DNA of 64,000 nt from an uncultured Eubacteriales bacterium (GCA_964440805.1 CAYTTR010000003.1:22888-86887), one strand, 5' to 3'; numbered from the stretch's first letter, positions 21,450 through 60,035 are shown. Made by a program: numbers and translations. Notes: generated by a model from the letters alone, not told the origin.

Positions 21450-23081
21450 TTAGACTCTTATACCCCGGTACATTCTTAACAGAGAATTCAGTTCTCCCTT
21501 AAATTCTTTCTGCTTTTCCAAAAGTTTCCCGTCTCCTTCCTGCGACTTCTTCTTCAGTTCCTCTCTCAGGTTTTTCATTTTTTCCTGGATTTCCCGGAAT
21601 GATTCCTGCTCCCACTGAAGCATTTTTTCGCCTGTGTTCCGGGAATAAAACTTGAAAGATTCCGGAAAAGCCGGGAAATATCTTCCAAATGAGGTTTTTT
21701 CCCGGGTAATTTTTACATCAGCTTTCTTTTTCTTGCGGTCTCTGAGAAATTCAATCTCTATCTTTTCCCCTTCATTCTTGTTCTGGATGATGCGGCTCAA
21801 GGCATCAACAGACTCAACTCTTTTTCCCTCAGCTCCGACAATTACATCACCCACTTTCAATCCGGCCTCATCGGCCGGACTGCCTTTATCGATCCGGCTT
21901 ACTAAAAGCCCAATTCCTTCTTTTACTCCAAAATACTCGGATAACTCTCGGTTCATCTCCTGAAGATAAACTCCAATGTAGTTCCGGCTTCCCAACTGCC
22001 ATCTGCCGCTTCTTGGTCCAAGGGGAAAAGGCTCGAAGGATTCGGGAATTTTAAACAGGCGGGGAAATTTTCTCTCCAATTCATCCCAAATATTCTCTTC
22101 AGTATATTCTCCCAGTTCGACCTCTATTTCTAATTCTTTTCCATGCCTGAGAATTTTCAGTTTAATCACCTGACCGGGTTTTTGCTGGCGAATGAAATCG
22201 GCAAACATCTTTGTCCCGGTAACTTCATATCCATTAACCTGCAAAACAATATCATGTTTTCTCAATCCGCCCTTTTCAGCCGGGGAATCAGGATCAACCT
22301 CCAGTATTTCCACCTCACCTTTTTCATTCTCACCTATTAAAGCTCCCAACCAGCCCCGCTCTACCTTGCCTTTTTCTTTGATCTCTGAGGCCACTCTGAC
22401 CACTACATCAACGGGAACGGCCAAGGCCATCCCGGAGGCAGGAGCCTGAGCGGCACTAAAGACATAGCCTGAACCTACCACTTGTCTTTCTTTGAACTCA
22501 AAGACTACCGGTTGGTTATCATAGTAGATTCCCCTGAGAAGACCAATCATTTTTCCTTGATCATTCACTACCGGGCTGCCGCTTGAACCGGGCACTACCC
22601 AGACATTCAGCCGGAGGCGCTCATCGCCAATAGAACTGACGATGCCCTGGGTAACAGCCGGCCTGTTTTCCGGGGAAACGGAAACAACTCCAATCCAGGA
22701 ACCGGGAGAAATTTCCCGGCTGTCTCCTAATGGAACAGCAGGCAGCTTAGCTTCAGTTTTGATAAGAGCCAGATGAGTCAAGGGGTCCATGCCGGCCAAA
22801 ACAGCCTCAAATCTGTTTCCCTCGGTATCAATAATATGAATTTTTTCATCTCTTGGAGTAATAAGAGCAGTGGTAACAATATATCCTTCCTTATCAAAAA
22901 CCACTCCGGTAGCAATTTTTCTGGTAAAGTTCCTGACTTCAACCCTTACTACAGAAGGAGAGATTTGCTTGAGAATTTCAGGCACATCTTCATCTTTGGG
23001 TAATGAATAGGCCGGGAAAACAGAGATTATAAGAAAACTCAAAATTAGGCTTATAATTACAGCTCCTTTTTGTTTTTGCAT
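21450..23081 (-). CDS. htrA: periplasmic trypsin-like serine endoprotease with two PDZ domains (HtrA/DegP/DegQ family)
   Basis: signal peptide; catalytic GSSGSPVVN; two PDZ segments. Confidence 0.8.
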   Translation of the reverse strand: MQKQKGAVIISLILSFLIISVFPAYSLPKDEDVPEILKQISPSVVRVEVRNFTRKIATGVVFDKEGYIVTTALITPRDEKIHIIDTEGNRFEAVLAGMDPLTHLALIKTEAKLPAVPLGDSREISPGSWIGVVSVSPENRPAVTQGIVSSIGDERLRLNVWVVPGSSGSPVVNDQGKMIGLLRGIYYDNQPVVFEFKERQVVGSGYVFSAAQAPASGMALAVPVDVVVRVASEIKEKGKVERGWLGALIGENEKGEVEILEVDPDSPAEKGGLRKHDIVLQVNGYEVTGTKMFADFIRQQKPGQVIKLKILRHGKELEIEVELGEYTEENIWDELERKFPRLFKIPESFEPFPLGPRSGRWQLGSRNYIGVYLQEMNRELSEYFGVKEGIGLLVSRIDKGSPADEAGLKVGDVIVGAEGKRVESVDALSRIIQNKNEGEKIEIEFLRDRKKKKADVKITREKTSFGRYFPAFPESFKFYSRNTGEKMLQWEQESFREIQEKMKNLREELKKKSQEGDGKLLEKQKEFKGELNSLLRMYRGIRV

Positions 23082-23096
23082 CTTATTCTTTCCTCC

Positions 23097-23492
23097 TTAA
23101 TATTTAACTGGTGTACCGGGACTATCAGAAACCTGCTCCAGAATATATATGGTCGGCGTTTTTTGTCTTTCTCTTCTGAATTCACCATTGTAGGTCACTT
23201 GCTCGGTAATAGGGAATACTCTTTCCCCGCTATATCTCACTTCCGGGTCAAACGGAATGTCAGCTTTTTTGGCATCCGCCTGATCTGTCAGGGGTTGATG
23301 AGGAATGATAAGGACTGAAATTATAAGAAAAGCCAGGATTATTGTCCCGGCGGCTCCAGCCAAAGAAAGCCCGAGAGTGCGGATTCTTTTCCTCTTTATC
23401 TTTCGTTCTATCAACATCCCCCCAACTTGACTCTCGAAATCCGGAGGAGCCTTTACTCGTTTCATACTTTTTAAAAGTTCAATCTCATCCAT
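23097..23492 (-). CDS. putative membrane-anchored anti-sigma factor
   Basis: 131 aa, single TM, overlaps the stop of the upstream ECF sigma gene by 8 nt; assigned by context only. Confidence 0.4.
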   Translation of the reverse strand: MDEIELLKSMKRVKAPPDFESQVGGMLIERKIKRKRIRTLGLSLAGAAGTIILAFLIISVLIIPHQPLTDQADAKKADIPFDPEVRYSGERVFPITEQVTYNGEFRRERQKTPTIYILEQVSDSPGTPVKY

Positions 23493-24105
23493 TTTCCCCT
23501 TCTCCTTCTTTAAAAAAATCCTCCTTATTAGAGAATTTCTCCAATTCTTTTCTTAAATAGTTTCTTCCCCGGCTGATACGGGCCTTGATTGTTCCTACCG
23601 GTACCTTCATAATTTGGGCGATTTCCTCCTGGGAAAAACCCTCCATATCCTTCAGAACAACCGGAATCCGGTAACGCGGGTGAAGGTTATTTAGGGCCCG
23701 GCGAAGAATTCTTATTGAATCTTTCTTTTCCGGTGAATCAAAGGAAGCCTCTTCCTCAATAAAAAAATCCTGTACCTCATCGAAAGAGACAGCAGACATT
23801 TTTCGCTTTTTTTTCAAATCGGTTTTGGCTAAGTTGGCGGCTATGGTGTAAATCCAGGAACTGAAAGGAGCAACCGGCTGGTACTGCTTGGCTTTGAAAT
23901 AAACTCTCATAAATGTCTCCTGGGCCAGCTCCACTGCTCTTTCATAATCCCCGGTGAGCTGCCAGATGAAATTGACCATCCTGTCTTTGTAGGCCCTGAC
24001 GATCTTTCCAAAAGCCGCTTCATCACCATCTTTAATCCGCTCCATCAGTTCTTGTTCATCCATCTCCAATTCCTTGTAACCTTTAAGTCCAGTTTTTCGT
24101 TGCAT
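23485..24105 (-). CDS. ECF-subfamily sigma-70 factor (sigmaE-like)
   Basis: region 2 ...FIWQLTGDYERAVELAQETFMRVY; region 4 HTH EEIAQIMKVPVGTIKARISRGR. Confidence 0.8.
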   Translation of the reverse strand: MQRKTGLKGYKELEMDEQELMERIKDGDEAAFGKIVRAYKDRMVNFIWQLTGDYERAVELAQETFMRVYFKAKQYQPVAPFSSWIYTIAANLAKTDLKKKRKMSAVSFDEVQDFFIEEEASFDSPEKKDSIRILRRALNNLHPRYRIPVVLKDMEGFSQEEIAQIMKVPVGTIKARISRGRNYLRKELEKFSNKEDFFKEGEGENG

Positions 24106-24182
24106 TTTCAGCCCGGAGATAATAAATTCCTTTTTTTTGAAAAATCAATTCTTTTCCCTCCGTTTTGAATGTTTATAATATC

Positions 24183-24389
24183 ACAATAAGAAATCATCAG
24201 ATATGCCCGGAGCGACATTGAGGCGCTAGTCTTCTCGAGCCGCTATTCGAGGGAATCTGATTTCGTCGGACGGCGAGTGCGCATTAAGCTGACGGAATGG
24301 AGTTACGCAGCCGCCGAGAAGAGCGGTGAGAGAATGGCGAAAAAAGCGCCGAAGTAAAGCGGAGGGCATACCTGATGATTTCTTATTGT
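24183..24389. mobile_element. TIR-bounded roughly 207-bp element (MITE-like or structured ncRNA), copy A
   Basis: 25-bp TIRs cacaataagaaatcatcagatatgccc / gggcatacctgatgatttcttattgt (1 mismatch); core homologous to 12029-12283 with compensatory stem changes. Confidence 0.55.
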
Positions 24390-24451
24390 TCAGAATCAAG
24401 TACAATAAAATGGAAAAAGAATCATTCGGGCAAATTGTATTTATAAAAAAA

Positions 24452-24958
24452 TCAGCCCTTCTCCTCAAGTTCAACCAAAATTTTATCAACATCTACCAAC
24501 AGCCCCTCAGAAACATGGACTTTCTTGACTACCCCGTCGATGGAGCATCTCAACTCGTTTTCCATCTTCATGGCTTCAACCACCACTAAGGTTTGATTCT
24601 TTTTAACTTCATCACTGTCTTTAACCAGAATTTTAATAACTTTCCCGGGCATAGGAGCTTTTATCTGCAGTTTATCCGCCGAAGACATTCCCTCATCTTC
24701 GTCAAAAACCTCTTTATCCTCAACCGGCTCCTGAACCAGCCATTGTTCTCCGTTAACATAGCACAGGTATTTGTCATTATCTGAAACAATGTAAACCACC
24801 AGGGCTGAATCTCCCATGACAAGGGAAAGGCAGTTAGGTGAAACCCATTGAACATCTGCCTGAAGAGTTTCTTCACCGAAGCTTGCCAGGTATCCTTTCT
24901 CTGATTTTTCCAGGGAAAGGGTACGAATTTGACCATCCAGCAACAATTCAAAGTCCAT
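24452..24958 (-). CDS. biotin carboxyl carrier protein (standalone biotinyl domain)
   Basis: VVVEAMKMENEL biotinylation motif. Confidence 0.8.
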   Translation of the reverse strand: MDFELLLDGQIRTLSLEKSEKGYLASFGEETLQADVQWVSPNCLSLVMGDSALVVYIVSDNDKYLCYVNGEQWLVQEPVEDKEVFDEDEGMSSADKLQIKAPMPGKVIKILVKDSDEVKKNQTLVVVEAMKMENELRCSIDGVVKKVHVSEGLLVDVDKILVELEEKG

Positions 24959-24959
24959 G

Positions 24960-26468
24960 TTATCTCCCCTTTCCTAAACGCCAGCGACCAAGTTCCTGCC
25001 AGGGGGAAAAAACCTCCTTCACCTCTCCTCGAGAATCTCTGCGTCCCGGTTTCACTGCGGCTGTTTTAAGAGCAGCCGCCAAAAGAGCGAACTTGGCTCC
25101 TTCTTCACTCTTGGCAGCCGGTTTCCATTTTTCAAAATGGCGGTTAATGAAATGGGTGGTTGTTCGGCCTTTGAGAAACTCAGGATGATTAACCACCTGC
25201 TTTAGAAAAAGGACTGTGGTCTGTATACCCAAGATTACATAATCACTTAGAGCCTGAATCATTCTCCGGCAGGCTTTCTCCCGGTTTTCTCCCCAAACAA
25301 TAAGCTTGGCCAGAATGGGATCATAGTAAATAGGTACCTCGAAGCCGCTGTAAACACCACCGTCATGTCTTATTCCCGGGCCGCATGGTTCTTTGTAGAA
25401 AAGTATTTTCCCTGAGGAAGGAAGAAAATTATTGGCCGGGTCCTCAGCATAAATCCGGCATTCAAGGGCATGGCCTCTCTGACTCAGCTCTTCCTGGGAA
25501 AAAGCAAGCTTTTCACCGGCAGCCACCCGGAGCTGCTGATGAACCAGATCAATGCCCGTAGTAAACTCTGTGACCGGATGTTCTACTTGCAGCCTGGCAT
25601 TTACTTCCAAGAAATAAAAGTTTTTATTTTTATCAAGGAGAAATTCCACTGTTCCGGCATTGGTATATCCGGCTGTTTTCATGACTTTTACAGCGGTTGC
25701 GCCCATTTTTTCTCTTAATTCCGGAGTAAGGGCCGGTGATGGAGTCTCTTCCACTATTTTTTGGTGGCGGCGCTGGATGGAACATTCCCTCTCAAAAAGA
25801 TGAACCACATTTCCATGCTGATCAGCCAGAACCTGGAATTCCACATGGCGGGGCTCTTCGATATATTTTTCAAGGTAAACCGATTCATCTCCAAAAGCAG
25901 ATTTAGCTTCTCTCATTCCTCCTTCAAGGGATGACCTGAGGTTTTCTGCCTGATAGATAATCCTCATTCCTTTTCCCCCTCCACCGGCTGAAGCTTTAAT
26001 CATCAAGGGATATCCGATCTTTTCCGCCTCTTTTTCGTATTCTTCAAAGCGCTGCAAGATTCCTTTCATTCCAGGGATTATAGGAACTCCTGCTTTTTCC
26101 ATGGTCTGACGGGAACAAATTTTGTCTCCAACCAGGTCCATTGCCTGGGAATTTGGTCCAATAAAAACAATGCCTTCATCTTCACATAAACGGGCAAAGT
26201 GAGGATTCTCGGCTAAAAAGCCGTAACCTGGATGAATGGCCTTAGCCCCGGTTTTATGGGCAGTGTCAACAATCCGCTCCATGTTCAAATAACTCTCCAG
26301 GGCCGGCGGAGGACCGATACAAACAGCTTCATCGGCTGTCAGGACATGGAGGGCATTCCGGTCCGACTCAGAGAAAACAGCGACCGTCTTGATATCCAGT
26401 TCCCGGCAGGCCTTAATAATTCTAACCGCAATTTCGCCTCTGTTGGCAATCAGGACTTTATCGAACAT
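24960..26468 (-). CDS. biotin carboxylase (ATP-grasp; alpha-subunit function of an acyl-CoA carboxylase)
   Basis: KVLIANRGEIAVRIIKACRELDI N-terminus, ATP-grasp motifs, 502 aa. Confidence 0.9.
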   Translation of the reverse strand: MFDKVLIANRGEIAVRIIKACRELDIKTVAVFSESDRNALHVLTADEAVCIGPPPALESYLNMERIVDTAHKTGAKAIHPGYGFLAENPHFARLCEDEGIVFIGPNSQAMDLVGDKICSRQTMEKAGVPIIPGMKGILQRFEEYEKEAEKIGYPLMIKASAGGGGKGMRIIYQAENLRSSLEGGMREAKSAFGDESVYLEKYIEEPRHVEFQVLADQHGNVVHLFERECSIQRRHQKIVEETPSPALTPELREKMGATAVKVMKTAGYTNAGTVEFLLDKNKNFYFLEVNARLQVEHPVTEFTTGIDLVHQQLRVAAGEKLAFSQEELSQRGHALECRIYAEDPANNFLPSSGKILFYKEPCGPGIRHDGGVYSGFEVPIYYDPILAKLIVWGENREKACRRMIQALSDYVILGIQTTVLFLKQVVNHPEFLKGRTTTHFINRHFEKWKPAAKSEEGAKFALLAAALKTAAVKPGRRDSRGEVKEVFSPWQELGRWRLGKGR

Positions 26469-26488
26469 GATTAACCTCTATTTGTGTT

Positions 26489-27295
26489 TTATTCCGACTC
26501 ATCTCCGGCCCAGAACGGCTTTCTCTTCTCCAGAAAAGCAGCCATTCCCTCTTGGCCTTCACGGCTTACTCTGAGCTGGGCAATCATGCGGGCAGTAAAG
26601 GGTTTGGCTTCTTCCAGACTCATGGCCGGCACCCGAAGAAGGAGTTCCTTGCAGCATGCAATGGCTTCCGGGCCGGAACTCAACAGCAAGTCAACCAATT
26701 CCTTCCCCGCTGATTTTAGCCCGGAAAGGGGAACCACCCGGTTTACAAGACCGATTTCCTTTGCAATATCAGCAGTAATTCTTTTTCCGGTAATAAAATA
26801 TTCCCGGGCCCGGCTTTCTCCGATTTTGCGGACCACATAAGGAGAAATAGCTGCCGGAACCAGTCCAATCTTCACTTCACTCAAGCCGAAGCTGGCACTT
26901 TGTGCTGCAATCGCAATGTCACAGGCTGAAAGAAAACCTGTTCCCCCTCCGATAGCTGCCCCATTCACCAAAGCAATGGTTGGTTTGGAAAGAGTGTAAA
27001 TACGGTGAAGAAGTTCTGCCACCTGAAGCGATTCTTTGAGATTCTGCTCAAAAGAATAGCGGATTATCTCCCGCATCCAGTTGAGGTCTGCTCCGGCACA
27101 GAATGACTTTCCGGCACCGGTCAGCACCACCACTCTTATTTCTTTCTCCATGGCTTCCTGCTGAAAAACCCGGTTCAGTTCTTCAATCATCTGCGCATTG
27201 AAAGCATTGTGGACTTCAGGCCTGTTGAGGATTATTCGCAGAAGCTTTTTTTCTTTTTCTACACAAATTGTGTCTAAGGTCTTTTTAGTATTCAT
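26489..27295 (-). CDS. enoyl-CoA hydratase/isomerase (crotonase; methylglutaconyl-CoA hydratase-like)
   Basis: crotonase fold motifs AAINGAAIGGG / SASFGLSEVKIGL. Confidence 0.8.
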   Translation of the reverse strand: MNTKKTLDTICVEKEKKLLRIILNRPEVHNAFNAQMIEELNRVFQQEAMEKEIRVVVLTGAGKSFCAGADLNWMREIIRYSFEQNLKESLQVAELLHRIYTLSKPTIALVNGAAIGGGTGFLSACDIAIAAQSASFGLSEVKIGLVPAAISPYVVRKIGESRAREYFITGKRITADIAKEIGLVNRVVPLSGLKSAGKELVDLLLSSGPEAIACCKELLLRVPAMSLEEAKPFTARMIAQLRVSREGQEGMAAFLEKRKPFWAGDESE

Positions 27296-27297
27296 CT

Positions 27298-28905
27298 TTA
27301 CATCCTGAAAATACCAACTTTGTAGTCTGGGATGGGAGCGTTAAGGCTCATGGAAATACCCAGGGCTAAGGCTTCCCTTGTTTCCAGCGGATCAAGGATT
27401 CCGTCATCCCATAGTCGGGCAGTGCTGTAGTAAGGGCTGGCTTCATGCTCGTATTTTTCCAGAATCGGTTTCATGAACTGCTTCATTTCTTCTTCGGTCA
27501 TATCCTTGCCTTTGTCTTTCATTCTCTTGACTTTAACCGTAAAGAGGACATTAGCAGCCTGCTCACCGCCCATAACACTTATCCTGGCGTTAGGCCACAT
27601 CCAGAGAAGCCTGGGCCCATAAGCCCGGCCGCACATGGCGTAATTACCAGCTCCATAAGAACCGCCGACGATAACAGTAAATTTGGGAACATCAGCGTTG
27701 GCCACAGCATGAACCAGTTTGGCTCCATCCTTGGCGATTCCTTTGTGTTCATATTCCTTGCCCACAATAAAACCAGTGATGTTCTGCAGAAAAAGAAGAG
27801 GAATTTTCCTCATGGAACAAAGGGTTACAAAGTGAGCCCCTTTCAATGAGCTCTCAGAAAAAAGTACACCGTTGTTGGCCAGGATTCCAACCGGGTAACC
27901 CATAATCCGGGCAAAGCCGCAAACAAGAGTCTGGCCGTAGAGCTCCTTGAATTCCTGAAAGCGGCTGCCGTCAACTAAGCGGGCAATGACTTCCTTGATA
28001 TTAAAAGAACGTCGAAGATCCTTGGGAATAATTCCGTAGAGTTCCTGGGGATCATAATAAGGCTCATCCGGCTCAGTCACATCCAGGGGGAATTTGCGCG
28101 GAGGATCCAAGGTTTCGACAATATTACGGGCAATCTGAAGGGCATGCTCATCATTGAGGGCATAATAGTCTGAAACACCTGATATGCGGCAGTGGACATC
28201 AGCTCCTCCCAGCTCTTCATCGGTAACTTCCTCGCCGGTGGCAGCCTTAACCAAGGGCGGACCGCCGATAAATATAGTTCCCTGGCGCCGGACAATCACG
28301 GTTTCATCACTCATGGCCGGCACATAAGCCCCTCCGGCCGTACAAGAACCCATAACAATTGAAATCTGGGGAACACCGAGAGCTGAAAGCCGGGCTTGAT
28401 CGTAAAATATCCGGCCGAAATGTTCTTTATCGGGAAAAGTGCCTGCCTGGTGCGGTAAAAATATTCCTCCTGAATCTACCAGATAAATGCAAGGCAGGCG
28501 GTTTTCCAAAGCCACTTCCTGAGCCCTGACATGTTTCTTAATGGTCATAGGGAAATAAGTTCCCCCTTTGACAGTGGCATCATTGGCCACCACCAGCACT
28601 TCCCGGCCGTGAACTTCTCCGACTCCGGTTATCATACTGGCAGCCGGAGCCTCATTATCGTACATATCGTAGGCGGCCAGAGGGCTTAATTCCAGAAAGG
28701 GAGTATTTTTATCGAAAAGCTTCTCCAGCCTCTCCCGCACCAGCAGCTTTCCTCTTGATTCATGAAGTTCTCGATACTTGGGGGGGCCGCCTTTTTGGAT
28801 TTTATTTAGGCGGCTTTTATAAGTCTCGACCACCTTTTTGTTTGTTTCAAAATTTTCCCGGAACTCAGGGCTCCGGGTATCAACCTTACTTTCCAGACGA
28901 AACAT
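27298..28905 (-). CDS. acyl-CoA carboxylase carboxyltransferase subunit (methylcrotonyl-CoA / propionyl-CoA carboxylase beta-like)
   Basis: 535 aa; N- and C-terminal carboxyltransferase halves; resembles MccB/LiuB. Confidence 0.85.
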
Positions 28906-29016
28906 ACCGCACTCCTTCTCTTTTTTCTGCGGGAAGTGACCAGATCTGCATCTGGTGCAGCTTCAATCCTTGAATGATTCAGAATAAATCCCGGTCACAT
29001 CCTGGTTATTTATCAA

Positions 29017-29409
29017 TTATTCAGGTACGAATTTATAGCCGTAACAGATAATGCCGGCCTCGCCCTCCTCAAATATCTTGCGAAATTCTATTTTAACCGG
29101 CAGCCCTACCCGCAGTTCATTAAAAGAGCAGTCCACTATTTGAGCCATTACTTTCACTCCATCTTCCAGCTCAACAATTCCCATGGCATAAGGAGTCTGG
29201 TCAACAAATTGGTGCGGAGGAACCCTGATAACGGTATAAGTTAGAACCTTTCCTTTTTCAGCCAGCTTGACGGGGTCAAATTCCTTGGAACCGCAGGCAG
29301 CACAAATTAGGCGGGGCGGGAAATAAATCTGGCCGCAGCGGCGGCATTTTTCGGCCTCCAGCCGGTATCTCTGAGGGATTTCTCTCCAATATTTTGACGG
29401 TGTAGGCAT
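29017..29409 (-). CDS. DUF35 Zn-ribbon/OB-fold protein (partner of archaeal-type thiolase/HMG-CoA synthase complex)
   Basis: CRRCGQIYFPPRLICAACGS Zn-ribbon then OB-fold; adjacent to thiolase and HMGCS. Confidence 0.7.
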   Translation of the reverse strand: MPTPSKYWREIPQRYRLEAEKCRRCGQIYFPPRLICAACGSKEFDPVKLAEKGKVLTYTVIRVPPHQFVDQTPYAMGIVELEDGVKVMAQIVDCSFNELRVGLPVKIEFRKIFEEGEAGIICYGYKFVPE

Positions 29410-29420
29410 GGTTTCCTCCT

Positions 29421-30578
29421 TTACTCTTCCCTTTCTAAGATGTGGACTACTGTACTTCCTCCACTGCCGCCCATATTCTGGGTCATTCCAATCCTGGCAT
29501 TTTTAACCTGGCGGGCTTCAGCCTGGCCGCGGAGCTGTTTGACCACTTCCACTACCTGGGCCGCTCCGGTAGCACCAACTGGATGGCCTTTGGCTTTCAG
29601 GCCACCGCTTGGATTGACCGGAATTTTTCCGTCAAGCGAAGTCAATCTACTCTGGACAGCCGGTCCGGACTGACCTTTTTCAAAAAATCCCAGAGCTTCA
29701 AGGACACATAGTTCAGCAATAGTGAAACAATCGTGGACTTCCACTAGGTCAATATCCTCAGTTTTTCTCCCTGCCATGGCGTAAGCTTGTTTGCCTGCCT
29801 GGTGAGTGGCCTCAAGCCAGGTAATATCCTTCCTCTGGGCTAAGGCAATGGAATCAGTGGCCTGTCCGGTTCCGGTAATTTTTATAACCGGTTTTCTTTT
29901 GGAGCGGACCAAATCGGCCGGGCAAAGAATGACGGCAGCCGCTCCATCTGTAATGGGCGAGCAATCCAGAATACGGAGGGGATCCGCCACCATTACAGAA
30001 TTCAGGACTGCTTCCACCGTCACTTCAAAAGGAAACTGGGCCAATGGATTCCGGGCTCCATTGAAATGATTTTTAACCGCTACCATGGCCAACTGTTCCC
30101 GGGTGGTACCGTATTTTTCCATGTGAGCCCGGGCAATCAATGCATACAGGCCGGGAAAAGTAATGCCGTGGTAGCCCTCATATTCCTGGTCTGCTGCAGT
30201 TCCCAGGGCATAAGTGGCTTCATGGCCGCTAACATCGGTCATTTTTTCAATTCCGCCGGCCAGAACTATATCGCTCATACCCGAAGCAACTTCGATGAAG
30301 CCCTGTCTGACTGCCAGTCCACCTGAGGCGCAGGCTGACTCAACTCTGGAAGCAGGCACAGGTGCCATTCCTAAATAATCAGCCAGAAGAGAGGCTATAT
30401 GTTCCTGGCCCACGAAAAGGCCTGAGGACATGGAGCCGATATACATAGAATCAACTTTATCTACTCCGGCATCATCCAAGGCCAGCAAAGCTGTCTCCAC
30501 AAATATATCCCGGAGGGATTGCTCCCAGAGCTCCCCCCACTTAGCCATCCCGATTCCTAATACAGCTACTTCTCTCAT
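29421..30578 (-). CDS. thiolase (acetyl-CoA C-acetyltransferase, SCP-x-like archaeal-type)
   Basis: thiolase fold with active-site Cys region ESACASGG; the start probably lies at the internal Met (the ORF track extends to 30635). Confidence 0.8.
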
Positions 30579-30588
30579 CTCTTCCTCC

Positions 30589-31635
30589 TCACTCAGCCTT
30601 CCGGATTTTTCTCCGGAACTTGGCATATTCACCATATTCCAGATAATTTTTCCGCGAATCCAGCAAATAACGTGTTTTCAATGCCATTTCCCTTGCTTCG
30701 TTGATTCTTTCGGTTACTTCAAAGACGAATGCATCACTGCCGGCTCCGGAACCATAGGAAACCATCAGGATCTTATCTCCTTCTGCGGCTATATCCAGAG
30801 TGGATGTCAATCCCAAAGGTGAAGAACCGGAATAGGTGTTTCCCAGTTTGTTTACCAGCCAGCCGGGAAGAATCTGTTCTTTTGTAAAGCCTAGCATCTT
30901 ACCTACTCTGAAAGGAAACTTACCGTTGGGTTGATGGAAAATTACATACTGAAGATCCTGAGGCTTCATTCCGGCCTTTTTCAATATTCCTTCCGAAGCT
31001 CCTAAAATATGCTTGAAATAGGCCGGTTCTCCGGTAAAACGGCCTCCGTGCTGGGGATAGTACTGGTATTCCCGTCTCCAAAAATCTGGAGTATCGGTCA
31101 TGAAAGAATATGTTTCCAGGACCTTGGCAATGATTTTTTCCCGGCCGAAAATAAAGGCAGCAGCCCCGGCAGCAGTCGAATATTCCAGAGCATCTCCCGG
31201 AGCTCCCTGGGATGTATCTGCGCCCACTGCCAAGCCGTAATCAACCTCGCCTGCTTTAACCAGACTGTAGGCGACAAACATCCCTTCGGAGCCGGCCTTG
31301 CAGGCAAATTCAAAATCCGCCGTATGGACGTCGGGTGTGGCTCCAATAGCTTCAGCCAGAACTGTTCCGCTCGGTTTAACGGCATAAGGATGAGATTCCG
31401 ACCCTACATAGACAGCTCCAATCTTTAACGGATCAATGCCGGCTCTTTTGAGAGCACTCCGGCTGGCTTCTACCGCCATGGTAATTGTGTCCTGGTCAGG
31501 AGAAGGAACCGATTTTTCTTCCAGCATCAAACCTTTCTTGTAAGAGGGAGCATCTGCTCCCCAGACCTTGGCTATCTCTTCAACCTTAATTCTGTTCCGG
31601 GGAATATAGGCCCCGTAACCAACAATACCAACCAT
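30589..31635 (-). CDS. hydroxymethylglutaryl-CoA synthase (archaeal-type HMGCS)
   Basis: [23 protein letters not shown]... with catalytic Cys region [12 protein letters not shown]. Confidence 0.85.
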
Positions 31636-31823
31636 AAAACTCCTCCCTGATAGATTTTATTTAAATTAAAAATAATCATAAAAAAGCCTTACTCTCTATA
31701 TTAAATATAACCTGGATTAAAGGATTTGGGAATTAGCTGATTCTGTTGAATGATTTTTTCATCCATACCCTGAAATTTGAGCTAATAATATTGGCATAAT
31801 TACAATTTGAAGTCAAGATATTT

Positions 31824-31860
31824 AAGGGGGACGCTCCCCAAAGGGACACCTCTTCCCCTG
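31824..31860. repeat. palindromic repeat P copy (plus orientation)
   Basis: aagggggacgctccccaaagggacacctcttcccctg. Confidence 0.6.
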
Positions 31861-31869
31861 AACAAATTA

Positions 31870-31985
31870 GTTTATTGCGTTTATTGCGTTTATTGCGTTT
31901 ATTGCGTTCATTTAGTTTGTCTGGTTTATCTGGTTTGTCTGGTTTATTTAGTTTAGAAGAAGGGTGAGGCGGGTGAGAAATGATT
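31870..31985. repeat. composite intergenic repeat: 4 x GCGTTTATT, then TAGTTTGTC/TGGTTTATC units, then GAG-like box
   Basis: gtttattgcgtttattgcgtttattgcgtttattgcgttcatttagtttgtctggtttatctggtttgtctggtttatttagttta gaagaagggtgaggcgggtgagaaa. Confidence 0.65.
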
Positions 31986-32109
31986 GTTGATGTTTAAGGG
32001 GGATTCTGTTTTGTTGACATAAGAATCTGTTGAATATAAATTTTGAGCGGATGTTCCCCATTCTGATGGAACTATTTTTTCCTGGATTTCGTCTTTAGGA
32101 ATGTGAGAA

Positions 32110-32670
32110 GTGGAAATAGAAGAAACCATAAAAAAATGCCTGAACGGAGACCAAGGAGCCTGGAAAATGATCGTTAATGCCTATTCCCAGAAGATATTCA
32201 GCATGTCCTACCAGTTCACCGGTTCACACCAAGAAGCCGAAGACCTTACCCAGGAAATATTTTTCAAACTCTACTCTTCTTTGAAAAAATATGATTTCCG
32301 CAAAAATTTCTCAGCCTGGCTCCTGACTCTGGCCAAAAATTACCTCATCGACAATTACCGCCGGACAAAATGGGAGAAGAAAAACCGGGATGAGCTCGAT
32401 GAGCGTTTCTTTGAGTCAGCAGAAAGCGAAAAGCCGGAACATAAACTTGAACAACAGGAAACTCAGAAGACGATCTGGAAAGGACTCAATCAGCTTTCCC
32501 CGGATATCCGGCTGGCACTCATCCTTTTTGATATTCAGGGCAAAACCTATGAAGAAACAGCCGAAATCCTGGCTGTCCCGGTTGGCACAATCAAATCCCG
32601 CATTAACCGGGGACGCCTGCAATTGGCCCAGATTTTAAGGGGAACAAGGGAGGTTTGCCATGACTTGTAA
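32110..32670 (+). CDS. ECF-subfamily sigma-70 factor (GTG start)
   Basis: region 2 AEDLTQEIFFKLY; region 4 EETAEILAVPVGTIKSRINRGR. Confidence 0.75.
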   Translation: MEIEETIKKCLNGDQGAWKMIVNAYSQKIFSMSYQFTGSHQEAEDLTQEIFFKLYSSLKKYDFRKNFSAWLLTLAKNYLIDNYRRTKWEKKNRDELDERFFESAESEKPEHKLEQQETQKTIWKGLNQLSPDIRLALILFDIQGKTYEETAEILAVPVGTIKSRINRGRLQLAQILRGTREVCHDL

Positions 32671-57560: not shown

Positions 57561-58691
57561 TCACTCCGGATTGGTTTTATTAGCTAAAGACCTTACTTCT
57601 TCAACAAATATATCAATAATTTCATCTTCTTTCACCCGGCGATAAAGCTCTCCTTTTTTGAAAATAACTCCTGCTTCCTTACCGCAGGCAAGGCCAATAT
57701 CAGCTTCCTTGGCCTCTCCAGGACCATTGACCACACAGCCCATAACAGCTACCGTCAAAGGAGTCTTGAGACTGGAAAGTTTTTTTTCGATTTCTGAGGC
57801 AATAGAAAACAGGTTGACCTGACAACGGCCGCAAACAGGACAGGAAACAATATTAACTCCCCGTTGGCGAAGACCAAGCGAGGAAAGAATAAGATAACCC
57901 ACTCGAACTTCTTCTTCTGGCGGTGCTGTCAATGAAACTCTTAATGTATCTACCAATCCTTGTGAAAGAAGAAGAGTCAGGCCAGCAGTGGATTTTACAG
58001 TCCCTGGAATCATTCCTCCGGCCCCGGTGATCCCTGCATGAAATGGATAGTCTACTTCCCTGGCCAGCAACTGATAGGCTTTCAGAGTTCTGAAAACGTC
58101 TGAAGCTTTGAGAGAAACCTTAATTATGTCAAATCCAAGATCCTCTAAAATTCTAATATGACGAAGGGCACTTTCCACCATTGCCTCAGGAACAGCTCCC
58201 AGGTACTTTTCCAGAAGCTCTTTCTCCAGGGAACCTGAATTGACTCCTATCCGGATGGGAATTTTTCTTTTCAAGGCAGCCAGAACAACTTCCCTGACCT
58301 TTTTTTTTGATCCGATATTTCCTGGATTTAACCTCAGACCATCCACCCCTGCTTCCAAGGAAGCAAGAGCCAAGCGGTGGTCGAAATGAATATCAGCCAC
58401 CAGAGGAAGAGAAACCTCTTTCTTGATTTTAAAAAGAGAAGCAACAGCATCCATGTCCGGAACAGCCAACCTGATAATTTCACAACCAGCTTCTTCCAAA
58501 CTCCGGATCTGGGCTAAAGTAGCCTTGACGTCACTGGTACTGGTTTTGGTCATGGATTGTACAACTACAGGAGAATCCCCTCCCACCACTACTTTCCCTA
58601 ACTTTATGGGCTTGGTCTTTCTTCTCTTGAATCTCCCGGATAATAATGAAGGAAAACAAGGAGAGTCCGGTTTTCTTTGCTTTCCGCCCAT
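57561..58691 (-). CDS. ispG: 4-hydroxy-3-methylbut-2-enyl diphosphate synthase (IspG/GcpE)
   Basis: VVVGGDSPVVVQSMTKT, C-terminal Fe-S cysteines CPVCGRC. Confidence 0.9.
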   Translation of the reverse strand: MGGKQRKPDSPCFPSLLSGRFKRRKTKPIKLGKVVVGGDSPVVVQSMTKTSTSDVKATLAQIRSLEEAGCEIIRLAVPDMDAVASLFKIKKEVSLPLVADIHFDHRLALASLEAGVDGLRLNPGNIGSKKKVREVVLAALKRKIPIRIGVNSGSLEKELLEKYLGAVPEAMVESALRHIRILEDLGFDIIKVSLKASDVFRTLKAYQLLAREVDYPFHAGITGAGGMIPGTVKSTAGLTLLLSQGLVDTLRVSLTAPPEEEVRVGYLILSSLGLRQRGVNIVSCPVCGRCQVNLFSIASEIEKKLSSLKTPLTVAVMGCVVNGPGEAKEADIGLACGKEAGVIFKKGELYRRVKEDEIIDIFVEEVRSLANKTNPE

Positions 58692-58698
58692 TCAAACC

Positions 58699-60030
58699 TC
58701 ACCAGGGAATTAAACTTTCCCAGCCGTGAGGAAGTCTCTTGACAACATCATTTAAAATGGCAAATACGATTAGAAAAATGAAGATGGCGAACCCGATTTG
58801 CATTATGACTTGTTTAACCTTAGGGGGAAAATCTTTTCTGAAAATCCCTTCAATTATCAAAACAAGAATCTGGCCGCCGTCGAGGACGGGAATGGGGAAA
58901 AGATTAATCACTCCAAGTTGAAGACTGATTAAGGCAATCCAGCTCATCAAGCTGAGCAAACCCATACGAAAAGCAGCATAAGAAAAACTGGCTATCTCAA
59001 TCGGCCCTCCTAATTGACTGGGAGAAGCTTCTCCTGTGAATAGATTCTTTATGAAATCAATAACCAGAGTGACCAGCTGGGCATTCCATTTGACACTCTC
59101 TATTATGGCAGAAAAAAAGTTGTACTTTCTCGTTTCCGAGCGGGGAGCTTGCATTATTCCGATACGTCCTATATCTCCCCTTCTTTCGGGAGTTACTTGG
59201 ATTGTGATTTTTTTATTATCTCTCTCAATAAGAAAACCCAGGGTTTCTCCTGGATTCTGCTGGACAATCTCCACAAATTTATAAAAATAAACAGGCTCTC
59301 CGTTTATAGCCAAAATAACGTCTCCTGGTTTAATCCCTGCCTCTTCCGCTGGAGAGTTCGGCTCGACCATTTCCACCTGAGTAAGGATTTGCCCGTAAAA
59401 TCCAGCATATCCCATCTGGTAGCGAGTTTTGCTTTCAGTAGTTAGGGGAACCTCCAGCATTTCCTCATCCCTTTTAATTTCGATATTAATGGTCCGGTCA
59501 GGTTTTGTTCCCACTGCCAGGTTGACATCATTCCAGGTTCCTGTCTTCTTATCATTAATTCTGAGGATAAGATCACCTGGCTTCAAACCAGCTCTCTCTG
59601 AAGGAGAATCAGGTTCTATCCAGCCGATAACAGGAGCTTCATTCAAGTACTGGGGCACATTCACCCCAACCATATTGATCACAGTCATTAGGAATACAGC
59701 TAAGAGAATATTCATGACTGAACCCATGACCAGCACTAAAAACCGCTCCCATCTTTTCTTGGACATGAAATCCCCGGGACTGCTGCTATCCGGTTTGGAA
59801 TAGTCTTCTTCACCGCTGAACTTAACGTATCCTCCCATGGGAATAAGACTTATCCGGTAATCTGTCTCTCCCTTTTTTATACCGAAAAGGCGTTTTCCAT
59901 ATCCCCAGGAAAAAACCTCTATCCTCATACCTACAAGTTTTCCCATGAAAAAATGTCCAAACTCATGAACAAAAACAAGAATGCCAAAGACCAAGGCAAA
60001 GGCAAACAAGGTTCCTATTAATGATCCCAT
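58699..60030 (-). CDS. rseP: RIP zinc metalloprotease RseP (site-2 protease) with PDZ domains
   Basis: HEFGHF in TM1; PDZ segments; conserved position between dxr and ispG. Confidence 0.85.
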   Translation of the reverse strand: MGSLIGTLFAFALVFGILVFVHEFGHFFMGKLVGMRIEVFSWGYGKRLFGIKKGETDYRISLIPMGGYVKFSGEEDYSKPDSSSPGDFMSKKRWERFLVLVMGSVMNILLAVFLMTVINMVGVNVPQYLNEAPVIGWIEPDSPSERAGLKPGDLILRINDKKTGTWNDVNLAVGTKPDRTINIEIKRDEEMLEVPLTTESKTRYQMGYAGFYGQILTQVEMVEPNSPAEEAGIKPGDVILAINGEPVYFYKFVEIVQQNPGETLGFLIERDNKKITIQVTPERRGDIGRIGIMQAPRSETRKYNFFSAIIESVKWNAQLVTLVIDFIKNLFTGEASPSQLGGPIEIASFSYAAFRMGLLSLMSWIALISLQLGVINLFPIPVLDGGQILVLIIEGIFRKDFPPKVKQVIMQIGFAIFIFLIVFAILNDVVKRLPHGWESLIPW

Positions 60031-60035
60031 TTGAA

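What the first reader, a model, noticed from the sequence alone, without database searches (positions are those of the whole stretch)
24452..31635. Seven-gene operon fusing an archaeal-type HMGCS/thiolase/DUF35 trio to a split biotin carboxylase/methylcrotonyl-CoA carboxylase-like set
All seven genes sit on one strand with overlaps or gaps under 25 nt, except one gap of about 110 nt. The order is HMG-CoA synthase, SCP-x-like thiolase, DUF35, carboxyltransferase (MccB/LiuB-like), crotonase (methylglutaconyl-CoA hydratase-like), biotin carboxylase and a standalone BCCP.
The HMGCS/thiolase/DUF35 complex is known from archaeal mevalonate pathways.
This genome also encodes the MEP enzymes Dxr and IspG at 57561-61190, so HMG-CoA here is probably not for isoprenoids.
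The operon links acetyl-CoA condensation to HMG-CoA with the 3-methylglutaconyl-CoA / 3-methylcrotonyl-CoA steps of leucine metabolism, without an HMG-CoA lyase. Either it is a leucine/isovalerate catabolic route that splits HMG-CoA thiolytically, or it is an anabolic route to isovaleryl-CoA-type branched starters.
The separation of biotin carboxylase (502 aa) from BCCP (168 aa) is also atypical for MCC alpha subunits.
Basis: partly seen in the sequence, partly recalled or inferred. Interest (0 to 1): 0.6.

Follow-up and report, generated by a model that had tools for sequence, protein, structure and literature searches.

The report
Lyase-free leucine-breakdown operon with archaeal HMG-CoA synthase
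An uncultured sediment-type bacterium (Aminicenantes) carries a seven-gene operon, conserved across many uncultured bacterial phyla, that joins the archaeal enzyme complex for making HMG-CoA to the leucine-breakdown carboxylase and hydratase but has no HMG-CoA lyase, which suggests an undescribed, energy-saving way of splitting HMG-CoA into three acetyl-CoA.

Summary
Seven co-directional genes on the minus strand (24452-31635) encode an archaeal-type HMG-CoA synthase, an SCP-x-type thiolase, DUF35, an MCC-beta-type carboxyltransferase, a LiuC/AtuE-like crotonase, a biotin carboxylase and a BT-BCCP protein.

All three proteins of the first trio have their best solved homologue in one entry, the Methanothermococcus thiolase/HMGCS/DUF35 complex. 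They keep its catalytic residues.

The carboxyltransferase scores 745-755 bits against three experimentally defined MCCs, 459 against geranyl-CoA carboxylase and under 300 against PCC.

The linkage is not chance. The same seven genes in the same order occur in 27 of 80 related loci from at least eight phyla. MCC lies within 10 kb of the trio in 23 of 28 loci with full flanks. A second, non-orthologous carboxylase set is fused to the trio in four more loci.

No HMG-CoA lyase or reductase signature occurs in 1.17 Mb of window plus loci. Neighbours are catabolic (acyl-CoA dehydrogenase, thiolase, 3-hydroxyacyl-CoA dehydrogenase, methylmalonyl-CoA mutase).

Best reading (about 0.45): a liu-like leucine/isovalerate module in which the thiolase/HMGCS complex runs backwards and replaces the lyase. 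Direction is inferred, not shown. I found no published description.

The parts
30589..31635 (-). Archaeal-type HMG-CoA synthase (348 aa)
   Evidence: NCBIfam TIGR00748 scores 532 bits and PRK04262 541 bits, both above cut-off. The best PDB match is 6esq_I, 470 bits and 63% identity. The Glu-Cys-His-Asn catalytic tetrad is retained ([29 protein letters not shown]). The PhlA-type acyltransferases have lost it (criteria from PMC12960953).
29421..30578 (-). SCP-x-type acetoacetyl-CoA thiolase (385 aa; the longest ORF runs to 30635)
   Evidence: Best PDB match is 6esq_A at 389 bits. The CASG nucleophile, the HDCF motif and the GHPVGATG motif are conserved. NF053570 scores 560 bits, below its 600 cut-off; PRK06064 scores 555 bits, above its cut-off. 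The start at 30578 is preceded by GGAGG.
29017..29409 (-). DUF35 scaffold protein (130 aa; zinc ribbon plus OB fold)
   Evidence: Pfam PF12172 and PF01796. Best PDB match is 6esq_E at 133 bits. CRRC...CAAC cysteines are present.
28906..29016 (-). 111-nt intra-operon spacer
   Evidence: No terminator-like site. The fold is not significant. Spacer length varies, and in related loci it holds insertions such as RAYT, AtuA and TPR genes.
27298..28905 (-). Carboxyltransferase of the 3-methylcrotonyl-CoA carboxylase beta clade (535 aa)
   Evidence: PDB scores: Legionella MCC 9tps 755 bits (identified), P. aeruginosa MCC beta 745, human MCCB 744, M. tuberculosis AccD1 722, geranyl-CoA carboxylase 459, PCC and other carboxyltransferases 293 or less.
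26489..27295 (-). Crotonase, LiuC/AtuE-like (putative 3-methylglutaconyl-CoA hydratase, 268 aa)
   Evidence: PF00378. The best NCBIfam models are gamma-carboxygeranoyl-CoA hydratase PRK05674 at 263 bits and PRK07468 at 262 bits, both below cut-off. PDB: AtuE 4zu2 140 bits, M. xanthus LiuC 5jbw 123 bits.
24960..26468 (-). Biotin carboxylase (502 aa) with a roughly 55-aa C-terminal extension
   Evidence: All three BC Pfam domains are present. The protein aligns to P. aeruginosa MCC alpha over residues 3-498 versus 9-499, so it reaches past the BC domain.
24452..24958 (-). BT-like domain plus biotinyl carrier domain (168 aa)
   Evidence: Biotin_lipoyl domain at residues 98-164 with EAMKMEN. A profile of the N-terminal roughly 95 residues hits the BT region of human ACC1 (E 0.001) and of PCC alpha residues 562-636 (E 0.33).
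31636..32109 (.). Divergent promoter region between the HMGCS gene and an ECF sigma factor gene
   Evidence: Promoter-like hexamers lie on the minus strand at 31816-31787 and 31732-31704. A 9-nt tandem repeat lies at 31870-31955. No Rfam match.

Best explanation
This is a self-contained catabolic module for 3-methyl-branched C5 acyl-CoA derived from leucine or isovalerate.

Proposed steps:
1. A three-subunit MCC (carboxyltransferase, biotin carboxylase, BT-BCCP) carboxylates 3-methylcrotonyl-CoA at the cost of ATP.
2. The crotonase hydrates 3-methylglutaconyl-CoA to HMG-CoA.
3. The thiolase/HMGCS/DUF35 complex, running opposite to its archaeal biosynthetic direction, converts HMG-CoA plus 2 CoA into 3 acetyl-CoA. 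HMG-CoA lyase would instead give acetyl-CoA plus free acetoacetate.

This route keeps the thioester that the lyase route loses. That is worth about one ATP per leucine for an anaerobe that makes ATP from acetyl-CoA.

Shown here: the gene identities, the catalytic motifs, the conserved linkage, and the absence of a lyase or reductase nearby. Inferred: the direction of flux, the substrate of the carboxylase and hydratase, and the reversibility of the complex.
For: (1) Identity. The trio matches the 6ESQ complex subunit for subunit with catalytic residues intact. The carboxyltransferase falls with experimentally defined MCCs. The crotonase is LiuC/AtuE-like.

(2) Linkage.
- All seven genes are colinear in 27 of 80 loci.
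- An MCC-type carboxyltransferase lies within 10 kb of the trio in 23 of 28 loci with full flanks.
- The labelled taxa include Aminicenantes, Zixibacteria, Ignavibacteria, Acidobacteriota, Glassbacteria, Coatesbacteria, Elusimicrobiota, Eisenbacteria and Cloacimonadota.
- Four loci fuse the trio to a different carboxylase set, ECH-BC-CT'-BCCP2. Its CT' is 33% identical and equally close to MCC beta and to glutaconyl-CoA decarboxylase. This is an independent solution to the same coupling.

(3) The trio sits where canonical liu clusters carry liuE. No GPRDG[LFI]Q (lyase) or DAMGxN (reductase) signature occurs in 1.17 Mb of window plus loci.

(4) Neighbours are catabolic:
- An acyl-CoA dehydrogenase occurs in 7 loci. 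It is embedded in the module in L078 and abuts the HMGCS gene in L031 and L042.
- A classical thiolase and a 3-hydroxyacyl-CoA dehydrogenase occur in 4-5 loci.
- Methylmalonyl-CoA mutase occurs in 6 loci, with MeaB annotated beside it in L031, and a PCC-like set in 1.

(5) An ATP-grasp biotin carboxylase is retained in every complete copy. This fits carboxylation, not decarboxylation.

(6) Thermodynamics.
- Thiolase condensation is about +25 kJ/mol (PMC13126070).
- From my own knowledge, the HMGCS step is of similar size and opposite sign, so 3 acetyl-CoA <-> HMG-CoA + 2 CoA is near equilibrium.
- An ATP-driven supply of HMG-CoA together with removal of acetyl-CoA can therefore pull the reaction backwards.

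(7) DUF35-thiolase pairs already work in the cleavage direction in bacterial catabolism: the BbsAB thiolase and ChsH2(DUF35), both among the PDB hits.
Against: - No enzyme was assayed. HMGCS is classically regarded as practically irreversible because it includes a thioester hydrolysis (my own knowledge).
- The retained catalytic residues fit the forward reaction equally well.
- No whole genome carrying the operon could be searched, so a lyase or reductase encoded elsewhere is not excluded.
- The neighbouring acyl-CoA dehydrogenase is closer to Bcd/short-chain acyl-CoA dehydrogenases (300-314 bits) than to isovaleryl-CoA dehydrogenases (212-232 bits). Bcd-type enzymes can run reductively.
- Five of the 28 loci with full flanks have the trio without MCC nearby.
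- The crotonase is below every curated NCBIfam cut-off.
Confidence: 0.45

Rival explanations
1. Anabolic direction. The trio makes HMG-CoA from acetyl-CoA, the crotonase dehydrates it, and the carboxylase runs backwards as a decarboxylase. The product is 3-methylcrotonyl-CoA and then isovaleryl-CoA, used for iso-odd fatty acids or for leucine by reductive carboxylation. This would be an analogue of the Myxococcus Aib pathway.
For: - M. xanthus couples an HMG-CoA synthase to LiuC to make isovaleryl-CoA (PMC5389471 abstract), so there is a precedent.
- The forward reaction is the known activity of the trio (6ESQ).
- Several host phyla (Acidobacteriota, Ignavibacteria, Myxococcota) are rich in iso-C15 lipids (my own knowledge).
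- The nearby acyl-CoA dehydrogenase resembles the reductive Bcd and AcrC enzymes.
Against: - Myxococcus needs a dedicated ATP-independent decarboxylase (AibA/B) and reductase (AibC) for this direction. Neither was seen in the window or in any neighbour family shared by 4 or more loci.
- From established bioenergetics, decarboxylation energy of about 20-30 kJ/mol cannot pay for one ATP at cellular phosphorylation potential. That is why known decarboxylation-driven systems pump Na+ instead.
- The ATP-grasp subunit is nevertheless conserved in all complete copies.
Confidence: 0.2
2. Both halves run forward and converge on HMG-CoA, which is consumed by an enzyme encoded elsewhere. That enzyme could be HMG-CoA reductase feeding a mevalonate route, as in the haloarchaeal conversion of leucine to isoprenoids. 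It could also be an unlinked HMG-CoA lyase.
For: Each enzyme would work in its textbook direction. Only 64 kb of this genome and 21 kb or less of each relative were visible.
Against: - MEP genes are present in the window.
- No reductase, lyase or GHMP-kinase signature occurs in 1.17 Mb.
- Cloacimonetes MAGs are reported to have a complete MEP pathway and only the thiolase and HMGCS of the mevalonate route (PMC7852524).
- With a lyase, forward HMGCS would merely hydrolyse acetyl-CoA to acetoacetate, which gives no reason for tight co-transcription with MCC.
Confidence: 0.15
3. The trio is a repurposed acyltransferase, like PhlABC or MucABC, or the juxtaposition has no functional meaning.
For: Bacterial HMGS/ACAT/DUF35 complexes that have lost HMG-CoA synthesis are known (PMC12960953).
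Against: - The E-C-H-N tetrad and the HDxF motif that those enzymes lost are intact here.
- PhlA scores 199-200 bits against 470 for the archaeal HMGCS.
- The gene order is conserved in 27 loci across phyla.
Confidence: 0.04

Closest known systems
Leucine/isovalerate utilisation (liu) cluster of Pseudomonas and the anaerobic isovalerate cluster of Desulfococcus multivorans
   Same: An MCC-beta-type carboxyltransferase sits next to a methylglutaconyl-CoA-hydratase-like crotonase and biotin carboxylase/BCCP functions. An acyl-CoA dehydrogenase lies nearby in some relatives. In D. multivorans, the acyl-CoA synthetase AcsA6, the hydratase EchA2, Mcc and HmgL are formed only in isovalerate-grown cells (PMC5109826).
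   Different: There is no HMG-CoA lyase; the thiolase/HMGCS/DUF35 genes occupy that place. The MCC alpha subunit is split into BC and BT-BCCP proteins. The dehydrogenase, where present, is Bcd/short-chain-like rather than of the isovaleryl-CoA dehydrogenase type.
Archaeal thiolase/HMG-CoA synthase/DUF35 complex (Methanothermococcus thermolithotrophicus, PDB 6ESQ/6ET9)
   Same: All three subunits have this entry as their best solved match (470, 389 and 133 bits). The catalytic and zinc-ribbon residues are conserved, and the three genes are adjacent.
   Different: The host is a bacterium with MEP genes. The partner genes are leucine-catabolic rather than mevalonate-pathway genes. The proposed direction is the reverse of the archaeal one.
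Alternative isovaleryl-CoA biosynthesis (Aib) of Myxococcus xanthus
   Same: It links an HMG-CoA synthase with the 3-methylglutaconyl-CoA and 3-methylcrotonyl-CoA steps outside isoprenoid synthesis (PMC5389471).
   Different: From my own knowledge, Aib uses a bacterial MvaS, the AibA/B decarboxylase, the AibC reductase and the TetR regulator AibR. Here there is an archaeal-type trio and an ATP-dependent MCC, and no AibA/B/C homologue was seen nearby.
3-Methylcrotonyl-CoA carboxylase holoenzymes (Legionella 9TPS, P. aeruginosa 3U9R/S, human 8J4Z)
   Same: The carboxyltransferase scores 745-755 bits over its full length. BC and BCCP functions are present, including a BT-like segment.
   Different: The solved MCCs have a single 655-725-aa alpha chain (BC-BT-BCCP). 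Here the chain is divided into 502-aa and 168-aa proteins, and this holds in all 27 complete related loci.
DUF35-associated degradative thiolases and aldolases (BbsAB, Ltp2-ChsH2) and the PhlABC/MucABC acyltransferases
   Same: They share the same SCP-x thiolase plus DUF35 scaffold, and in bacteria they are used for C-C bond cleavage or acyl transfer.
   Different: The scores are much lower (40-190 bits). Those systems lack a true HMGCS, or have one that has lost the catalytic tetrad.

Membership tests
Archaeal-type thiolase/HMGCS/DUF35 complex | HMGCS with the Glu-Cys-His-Asn catalytic tetrad | tested here: met
   All four residues align with 6ESQ and are replaced in PhlA. The criteria come from PMC12960953.
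Archaeal-type thiolase/HMGCS/DUF35 complex | Thiolase with the CxS nucleophile, HDxF and GHx motifs | tested here: met
   CASG, HDCF and GHPVG are conserved in the alignment to 6esq_A.
Archaeal-type thiolase/HMGCS/DUF35 complex | DUF35 protein with a zinc ribbon and an OB fold, encoded next to the other two | tested here: met
   PF12172 and PF01796. Best PDB match is 6esq_E. The genes are adjacent, with 10-nt and 11-nt spacers.
Archaeal-type thiolase/HMGCS/DUF35 complex | Physical complex with a shared CoA-binding site that channels acetoacetyl-CoA | not testable with these tools
   This needs co-purification or a structure.
Archaeal-type thiolase/HMGCS/DUF35 complex | Works within a mevalonate pathway (HMG-CoA reductase and kinases present) | tested here: not met
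   No DAMGxN or GHMP signature occurs in the window or in 80 loci. IspG and Dxr of the MEP route are in the window. Whole genomes were not searched.
3-Methylcrotonyl-CoA carboxylase / liu cluster | Carboxyltransferase in the MCC-beta clade rather than the GCC or PCC clade | tested here: met
   745-755 bits to three defined MCCs, against 459 for GCC and 293 or less for PCC.
3-Methylcrotonyl-CoA carboxylase / liu cluster | Single alpha chain with BC, BT and BCCP domains | tested here: not met
   There are two ORFs of 502 and 168 aa. The BT-like segment is on the BCCP protein and the BC tail aligns into MCC alpha. The domain content is kept but the fusion is not.
3-Methylcrotonyl-CoA carboxylase / liu cluster | Biotinylation motif (A/V)MKM | tested here: met
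   EAMKMEN is present in the 168-aa protein.
3-Methylcrotonyl-CoA carboxylase / liu cluster | Adjacent 3-methylglutaconyl-CoA hydratase (LiuC) | tested here: inconclusive
   The crotonase lies 2 nt downstream. Its best models are of the AtuE/LiuC type but score below cut-off (263 versus 426 bits). M. xanthus LiuC scores 123 bits.
3-Methylcrotonyl-CoA carboxylase / liu cluster | HMG-CoA lyase (LiuE) in the cluster | tested here: not met
   No GPRDG[LFI]Q signature occurs in the window or in any of 80 loci. No lyase-like family was found among neighbour clusters shared by 4 or more loci.
3-Methylcrotonyl-CoA carboxylase / liu cluster | Activity on 3-methylcrotonyl-CoA | not testable with these tools
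   This needs an enzyme assay.
Myxococcus Aib pathway | AibA/B decarboxylase, AibC reductase and AibR regulator next to the HMGCS gene | tested here: not met
   None of the ten genes from 21450 to 31635, nor the five tested ORFs upstream to 36850, has such domains. None of the annotated neighbour families shared by 4 or more loci does either.
PhlABC/MucABC Friedel-Crafts acyltransferases | Loss of the HMGCS tetrad and of the thiolase HDxF motif | tested here: not met
   Both are intact here.

The most novel reading that the evidence does not exclude
The whole operon runs from acetyl-CoA to 3-methylcrotonyl-CoA, with the soluble biotin carboxylase working backwards. Decarboxylation of 3-methylglutaconyl-CoA would then be coupled directly to ATP synthesis. 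This would give uncultured anaerobes either a previously unknown ATP-yielding branch of fermentation or a de novo, leucine-independent route to isovaleryl-CoA, iso-fatty acids and leucine.

A less radical novel reading is my best explanation: lyase-free, thioester-conserving cleavage of HMG-CoA by a reversed archaeal complex. I put that at about 0.45, with interest of about 0.75 if true.
Probability: 0.1. Interest if true: 0.85.

Novelty: new variant of a known kind. Interest (0 to 1): 0.62.

Why it matters
If the thiolase/HMGCS complex really replaces HMG-CoA lyase, several things follow.

- Leucine and isovalerate oxidation in anoxic sediments, aquifers and digesters would yield three acetyl-CoA instead of two plus an acetate-equivalent loss. 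That is roughly one extra ATP in a pathway otherwise close to zero net yield. This could explain how fermentative or syntrophic members of Aminicenantes, Zixibacteria, Ignavibacteria and related phyla live on branched-chain substrates.
- It would be the first physiological role for the "archaeal mevalonate" complex in the reverse direction.
- It would explain the recurring and puzzling annotation of "the first two mevalonate enzymes only" in MEP-bearing bacterial MAGs.
- It would correct pathway calls such as "partial mevalonate pathway" and "incomplete leucine degradation" in many metagenome studies.
- The split three-protein MCC and the second carboxylase lineage fused to the same trio are useful material for studying how biotin carboxylases assemble.

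Tried and rejected
- **Source contig.** Exact-sequence look-ups of the window HMGCS and its 100% match P0001 found no encoding contig and no name, so the source genome could not be retrieved.
- **Literature.** Ten full-text searches combined HMGCS/DUF35, MCC, isovalerate, leucine and the phylum names. None found a paper describing this operon. Genome papers on Caldithrix and Cloacimonadota do not mention these genes. The 2018 PNAS paper on the archaeal complex is not held in the library, so the HMGCS thermodynamics rest on my own knowledge.
- **Regulatory RNA or terminator inside the operon.** Nothing was found.
- **ETF genes near the Zixibacteria operons.** The candidates turned out to be DUF1189 and an epimerase.
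- **A consistent alternative partner in loci lacking MCC.** There is none; the neighbours are transporters, a CoA-transferase and TPR proteins.
- **Other pathway genes in the window.** Scans of 20 further window ORFs (about a third of the ORFs of 120 aa or more) found only housekeeping, regulatory and cell-envelope functions or no family match.
- **PhlABC-like acyltransferase reading.** Rejected on catalytic residues.
- **The methylmalonyl-CoA-mutase neighbour as an isovaleryl/pivalyl-CoA mutase.** The two copies scanned, in L080 and L018, score best with methylmalonyl-CoA mutase models. The copy in L031 sits with MeaB and the one in L040 with a PCC-like set. They are most simply ordinary propionyl-CoA metabolism.

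Full report
**1. What is in the sequence**

ORF listing shows seven co-directional minus-strand ORFs between 24452 and 31635. Pfam and NCBIfam scans assign them as follows, in order of transcription:
- An HMG-CoA synthase of the archaeal type. TIGR00748 scores 532 bits and PRK04262 541 bits, both above cut-off. The bacterial and eukaryotic HMGCS models score far below their cut-offs.
- An SCP-x-type thiolase.
- A DUF35 protein with a zinc ribbon and an OB fold.
- A carboxyltransferase.
- A crotonase.
- A biotin carboxylase.
- A biotinyl carrier protein.

Spacers are 11, 111, 2, 20 and 1 nt. The apparent 47-nt overlap of HMGCS and thiolase is an artefact. Homology begins at Met20 of the long ORF, and a GGAGG box precedes that ATG at 30578, so the real spacer is 10 nt. 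The 111-nt gap has no terminator-like site and no significant fold. IspG, RseP and Dxr lie at 57561-61190.

**2. Identity of the parts**

*The trio.* Each trio protein has its best solved homologue in the same PDB entry, the Methanothermococcus thermolithotrophicus thiolase/HMGCS/DUF35 complex 6ESQ/6ET9:
- HMGCS: 470 bits, 63% identity.
- Thiolase: 389 bits.
- DUF35: 133 bits.

A 2026 study lists the residues that separate true HMG-CoA-forming complexes from bacterial derivatives that became Friedel-Crafts acyltransferases. These are an E-C-H-N tetrad in the synthase and CxS, HDxF and GHx motifs in the thiolase (PMC12960953). All of them are intact here. The aligned PhlA sequence shows the four substitutions.

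*The carboxyltransferase.* Its scores are:
- 755 bits against the Legionella pneumophila enzyme of entry 9TPS, which is described as MCC in bioRxiv 10.64898/2025.12.22.694428.
- 745 bits against P. aeruginosa MCC beta.
- 744 bits against human MCCB.
- 722 bits against M. tuberculosis AccD1.
- 459 bits against geranyl-CoA carboxylase.
- 293 bits or less against propionyl-CoA carboxylases and other carboxyltransferases.

*The crotonase.* It is closest to the gamma-carboxygeranoyl-CoA hydratase and LiuC-like models, but below their cut-offs. AtuE scores 140 bits and M. xanthus LiuC 123 bits in the PDB search.

*The split alpha subunit.* The biotin carboxylase aligns to P. aeruginosa MCC alpha through residue 499, which is beyond the BC domain. 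The 168-aa protein has the EAMKMEN biotinylation motif. A profile of its N-terminal roughly 95 residues finds the BT region of human ACC1 (E 0.001) and, weakly, that of PCC alpha (E 0.33). The MCC alpha subunit is thus present in content but split into two proteins.

**3. The linkage is not a juxtaposition**

A scan of one genome per GTDB species with the HMGCS protein returned more than 598 relatives. The best 80 loci are all bacterial MAGs. The nearest, at 84% identity, are Candidatus Aminicenantes. These also share the flanking ECF-sigma, anti-sigma-like and HtrA genes, which places the window in that lineage.

tblastn of the seven window proteins against these loci gave the following:
- All seven genes occur in the same order within 7.0-9.9 kb in 27 loci. 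One further locus has a rotated order.
- Among the 28 loci with a full 10 kb on both sides, 23 have an MCC-type carboxyltransferase (at least 60% identity) near the trio.
- Most of the remaining loci are short contigs that end before the carboxylase could appear.

The labelled taxa include Aminicenantes, Zixibacteria, Ignavibacteria, Acidobacteriota, Glassbacteria, Coatesbacteria, Elusimicrobiota, Eisenbacteria and Cloacimonadota.

Four loci are labelled Planctomycetota, Acidobacteriota, Myxococcia and unclassified. They join the trio to a different set, ECH-BC-CT'-BCCP2. Its carboxyltransferase is only 33% identical. In the PDB search it is equally close to MCC beta (255 bits) and to glutaconyl-CoA decarboxylase GcdA (245 bits). 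Both of those act on the gamma-carboxyl of (methyl)glutaconyl-CoA. Two different carboxylase lineages fused to the same trio is strong evidence for a functional coupling through HMG-CoA and 3-methylglutaconyl-CoA.

**4. What is absent, and what else is nearby**

A six-frame search covered the window and all 80 loci, 1.17 Mb in total. It used the HMG-CoA lyase signature GPRDG[LFI]Q, the HMG-CoA reductase signature DAMGxN and a GHMP-kinase motif. It found none. A single GTVGG match lies in an unrelated 835-aa ORF.

Clustering all neighbour ORFs and annotating the recurrent families showed:
- An acyl-CoA dehydrogenase in 7 loci. It abuts the HMGCS gene in L031 and L042 and is embedded between BCCP2 and ECH in L078.
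- A classical thiolase in 4 loci and a 3-hydroxyacyl-CoA dehydrogenase in 5.
- Methylmalonyl-CoA mutase in 6 loci, with its small subunit in at least three (L031, L040, L080) and MeaB annotated in L031.
- A PCC-like set in one locus.
- AtuA in 4 loci.

These are enzymes of acyl-CoA breakdown. The dehydrogenase is closer to Bcd and short-chain acyl-CoA dehydrogenases than to isovaleryl-CoA dehydrogenases.

The other window ORFs that were scanned (20 ORFs, about a third of those of 120 aa or more) encode housekeeping, regulatory and cell-envelope functions or match no family.

In the literature, Cloacimonetes MAGs are described as having a complete MEP pathway plus only the acetyl-CoA acetyltransferase and HMGCS of the mevalonate route (PMC7852524). 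That matches what is seen here. The one anaerobic isovalerate degrader with proteomic data, Desulfococcus multivorans, uses Mcc plus an HMG-CoA lyase (PMC5109826).

**5. How it most likely works**

Three facts suggest a liu-like catabolic module in which the lyase is replaced:
- The carboxylase is of the MCC type and keeps its ATP-grasp subunit in every complete copy.
- The neighbours are catabolic.
- The trio sits where canonical liu clusters carry liuE.

The proposed stoichiometry is 3-methylcrotonyl-CoA + HCO3- + ATP + H2O + 2 CoA -> 3 acetyl-CoA + ADP + Pi.

*Energetics of the last step.*
- Thiolase condensation costs about +25 kJ/mol (PMC13126070).
- From my own knowledge, the HMGCS step releases a similar amount. 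The overall reaction 3 acetyl-CoA <-> HMG-CoA + 2 CoA is therefore near equilibrium.
- A channelling complex must catalyse both directions.
- ATP-driven carboxylation upstream and removal of acetyl-CoA downstream would pull it towards cleavage.

*The benefit.* The lyase route releases free acetoacetate, and its re-activation consumes a thioester. The thiolytic route keeps that thioester, which is worth about one ATP per leucine. This matters for anaerobes living near the thermodynamic limit.

These steps are inferred, not shown. HMGCS is classically treated as irreversible, and no whole genome could be checked for an unlinked lyase.

**6. Rivals**

*Anabolic reading.* This is acetyl-CoA to isovaleryl-CoA, as in the Myxococcus Aib pathway (PMC5389471). 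It is possible. It would require the ATP-dependent carboxylase to run backwards against the cellular phosphorylation potential. Myxococcus avoids that by using the dedicated decarboxylase AibA/B, and no homologue of it was seen near the operon.

*Convergent reading.* Both halves would feed HMG-CoA to an unlinked reductase or lyase. This is disfavoured by the MEP genes, by the absence of signatures in 1.17 Mb and by the Cloacimonetes report. It is not excluded.

*PhlABC-like acyltransferase or chance juxtaposition.* This is rejected by the intact catalytic residues and by the conservation across phyla.

**7. Novelty and verdict**

None of the ten full-text searches found a description of this operon or of a lyase-free HMG-CoA cleavage. 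Every part belongs to a known family, and the overall chemistry is that of leucine catabolism.

I therefore class it as a new variant of a known kind. It is a liu-type module with non-orthologous replacement of the terminal step by an archaeal-type complex, and with a split MCC alpha subunit. It is widespread in uncultured phyla.

Interest is 0.62. The conserved fusion is real and unexpected, and it turns a vague MAG annotation ("partial mevalonate pathway") into a directly testable biochemical hypothesis. The key claim, the direction of flux, remains inference.

Noticed in passing
window 31870-31955: A 9-nt tandem repeat (GTTTATTGC / GTTTATTTC, about 9.6 copies) lies in the divergent intergenic region between the HMGCS gene and an ECF sigma factor gene. 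It could be a regulator-binding array or a slippage-prone tract.
   Followed up: no
window 21450-24105, and L003, L004, L007, L008, L010, L013: An ECF sigma factor, a 131-aa protein with no family match (a possible anti-sigma factor) and an HtrA-like protease with two PDZ domains follow the operon. The same arrangement occurs in the window and in Aminicenantes relatives. A second ECF sigma gene is divergent upstream (32110-32670).
   Followed up: partly
window 24452-31635: The operon is 48.3% G+C against 41.9% for the rest of the window, and is higher than EF-G (45.8%), dxr and ispG. This is compatible with horizontal acquisition of the whole module, which would fit its spread across phyla.
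   Followed up: partly
L050 871-9111; L056 690-7913; L073 10001-17572; L078 3396-12266: A second module type joins the trio to ECH, BC, a carboxyltransferase and a 205-218-aa BCCP. Its carboxyltransferase is only 33% identical to the window's and is equidistant from MCC beta and glutaconyl-CoA decarboxylase. In L078 an acyl-CoA dehydrogenase is embedded in the module.
   Followed up: partly
L062 9966-11801; L063 9692-11518; L079 8489-9853; L054 18781-20583: AtuA (PF07287) is a protein of the acyclic-terpene-utilisation cluster; I know of no assigned biochemical function for it. It sits directly beside or inside the trio/MCC operon in four loci. This may link the family to the metabolism of 3-methyl-branched acyl-CoA.
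   Followed up: no
L027 12676-14083; L036 12724-13305; L074 12842-13432: REP-associated tyrosine transposase genes, two copies in L027, are inserted in the DUF35-to-carboxyltransferase spacer of Zixibacteria operons. This is the same spacer that is 111 nt long in the window.
   Followed up: no
L031 11036-12458; L042 2594-4135: In L031, thiamine-biosynthesis genes (Thi4 and TMP-TENI) are inserted between the HMGCS and thiolase genes, splitting the otherwise tightly coupled trio. L042 has a matching insertion; its second ORF falls in the same cluster as the L031 TMP-TENI gene, and its first ORF was not annotated.
   Followed up: no
L018 17229-18896; L019 19451-21046; L029 1707-3455; L031 4125-8789; L040 2595-9119; L080 5237-7284: Methylmalonyl-CoA mutase lies beside the operon in six loci, with its small subunit in L031, L040 and L080 and MeaB annotated in L031. 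In L040 there is also a PCC-like carboxylase set. These form branched-chain acyl-CoA catabolic super-clusters.
   Followed up: partly
protein P0066: An HMGCS 84% identical to the window's is labelled Candidatus Heimdallarchaeota in NCBI, on a 124-kb contig. All other near relatives are Aminicenantes, so this is probably a mis-binned bacterial contig.
   Followed up: no
window 57561-61190: ispG, rseP and dxr form a compact minus-strand cluster. The MEP pathway genes flank the site-2 protease gene.
   Followed up: no
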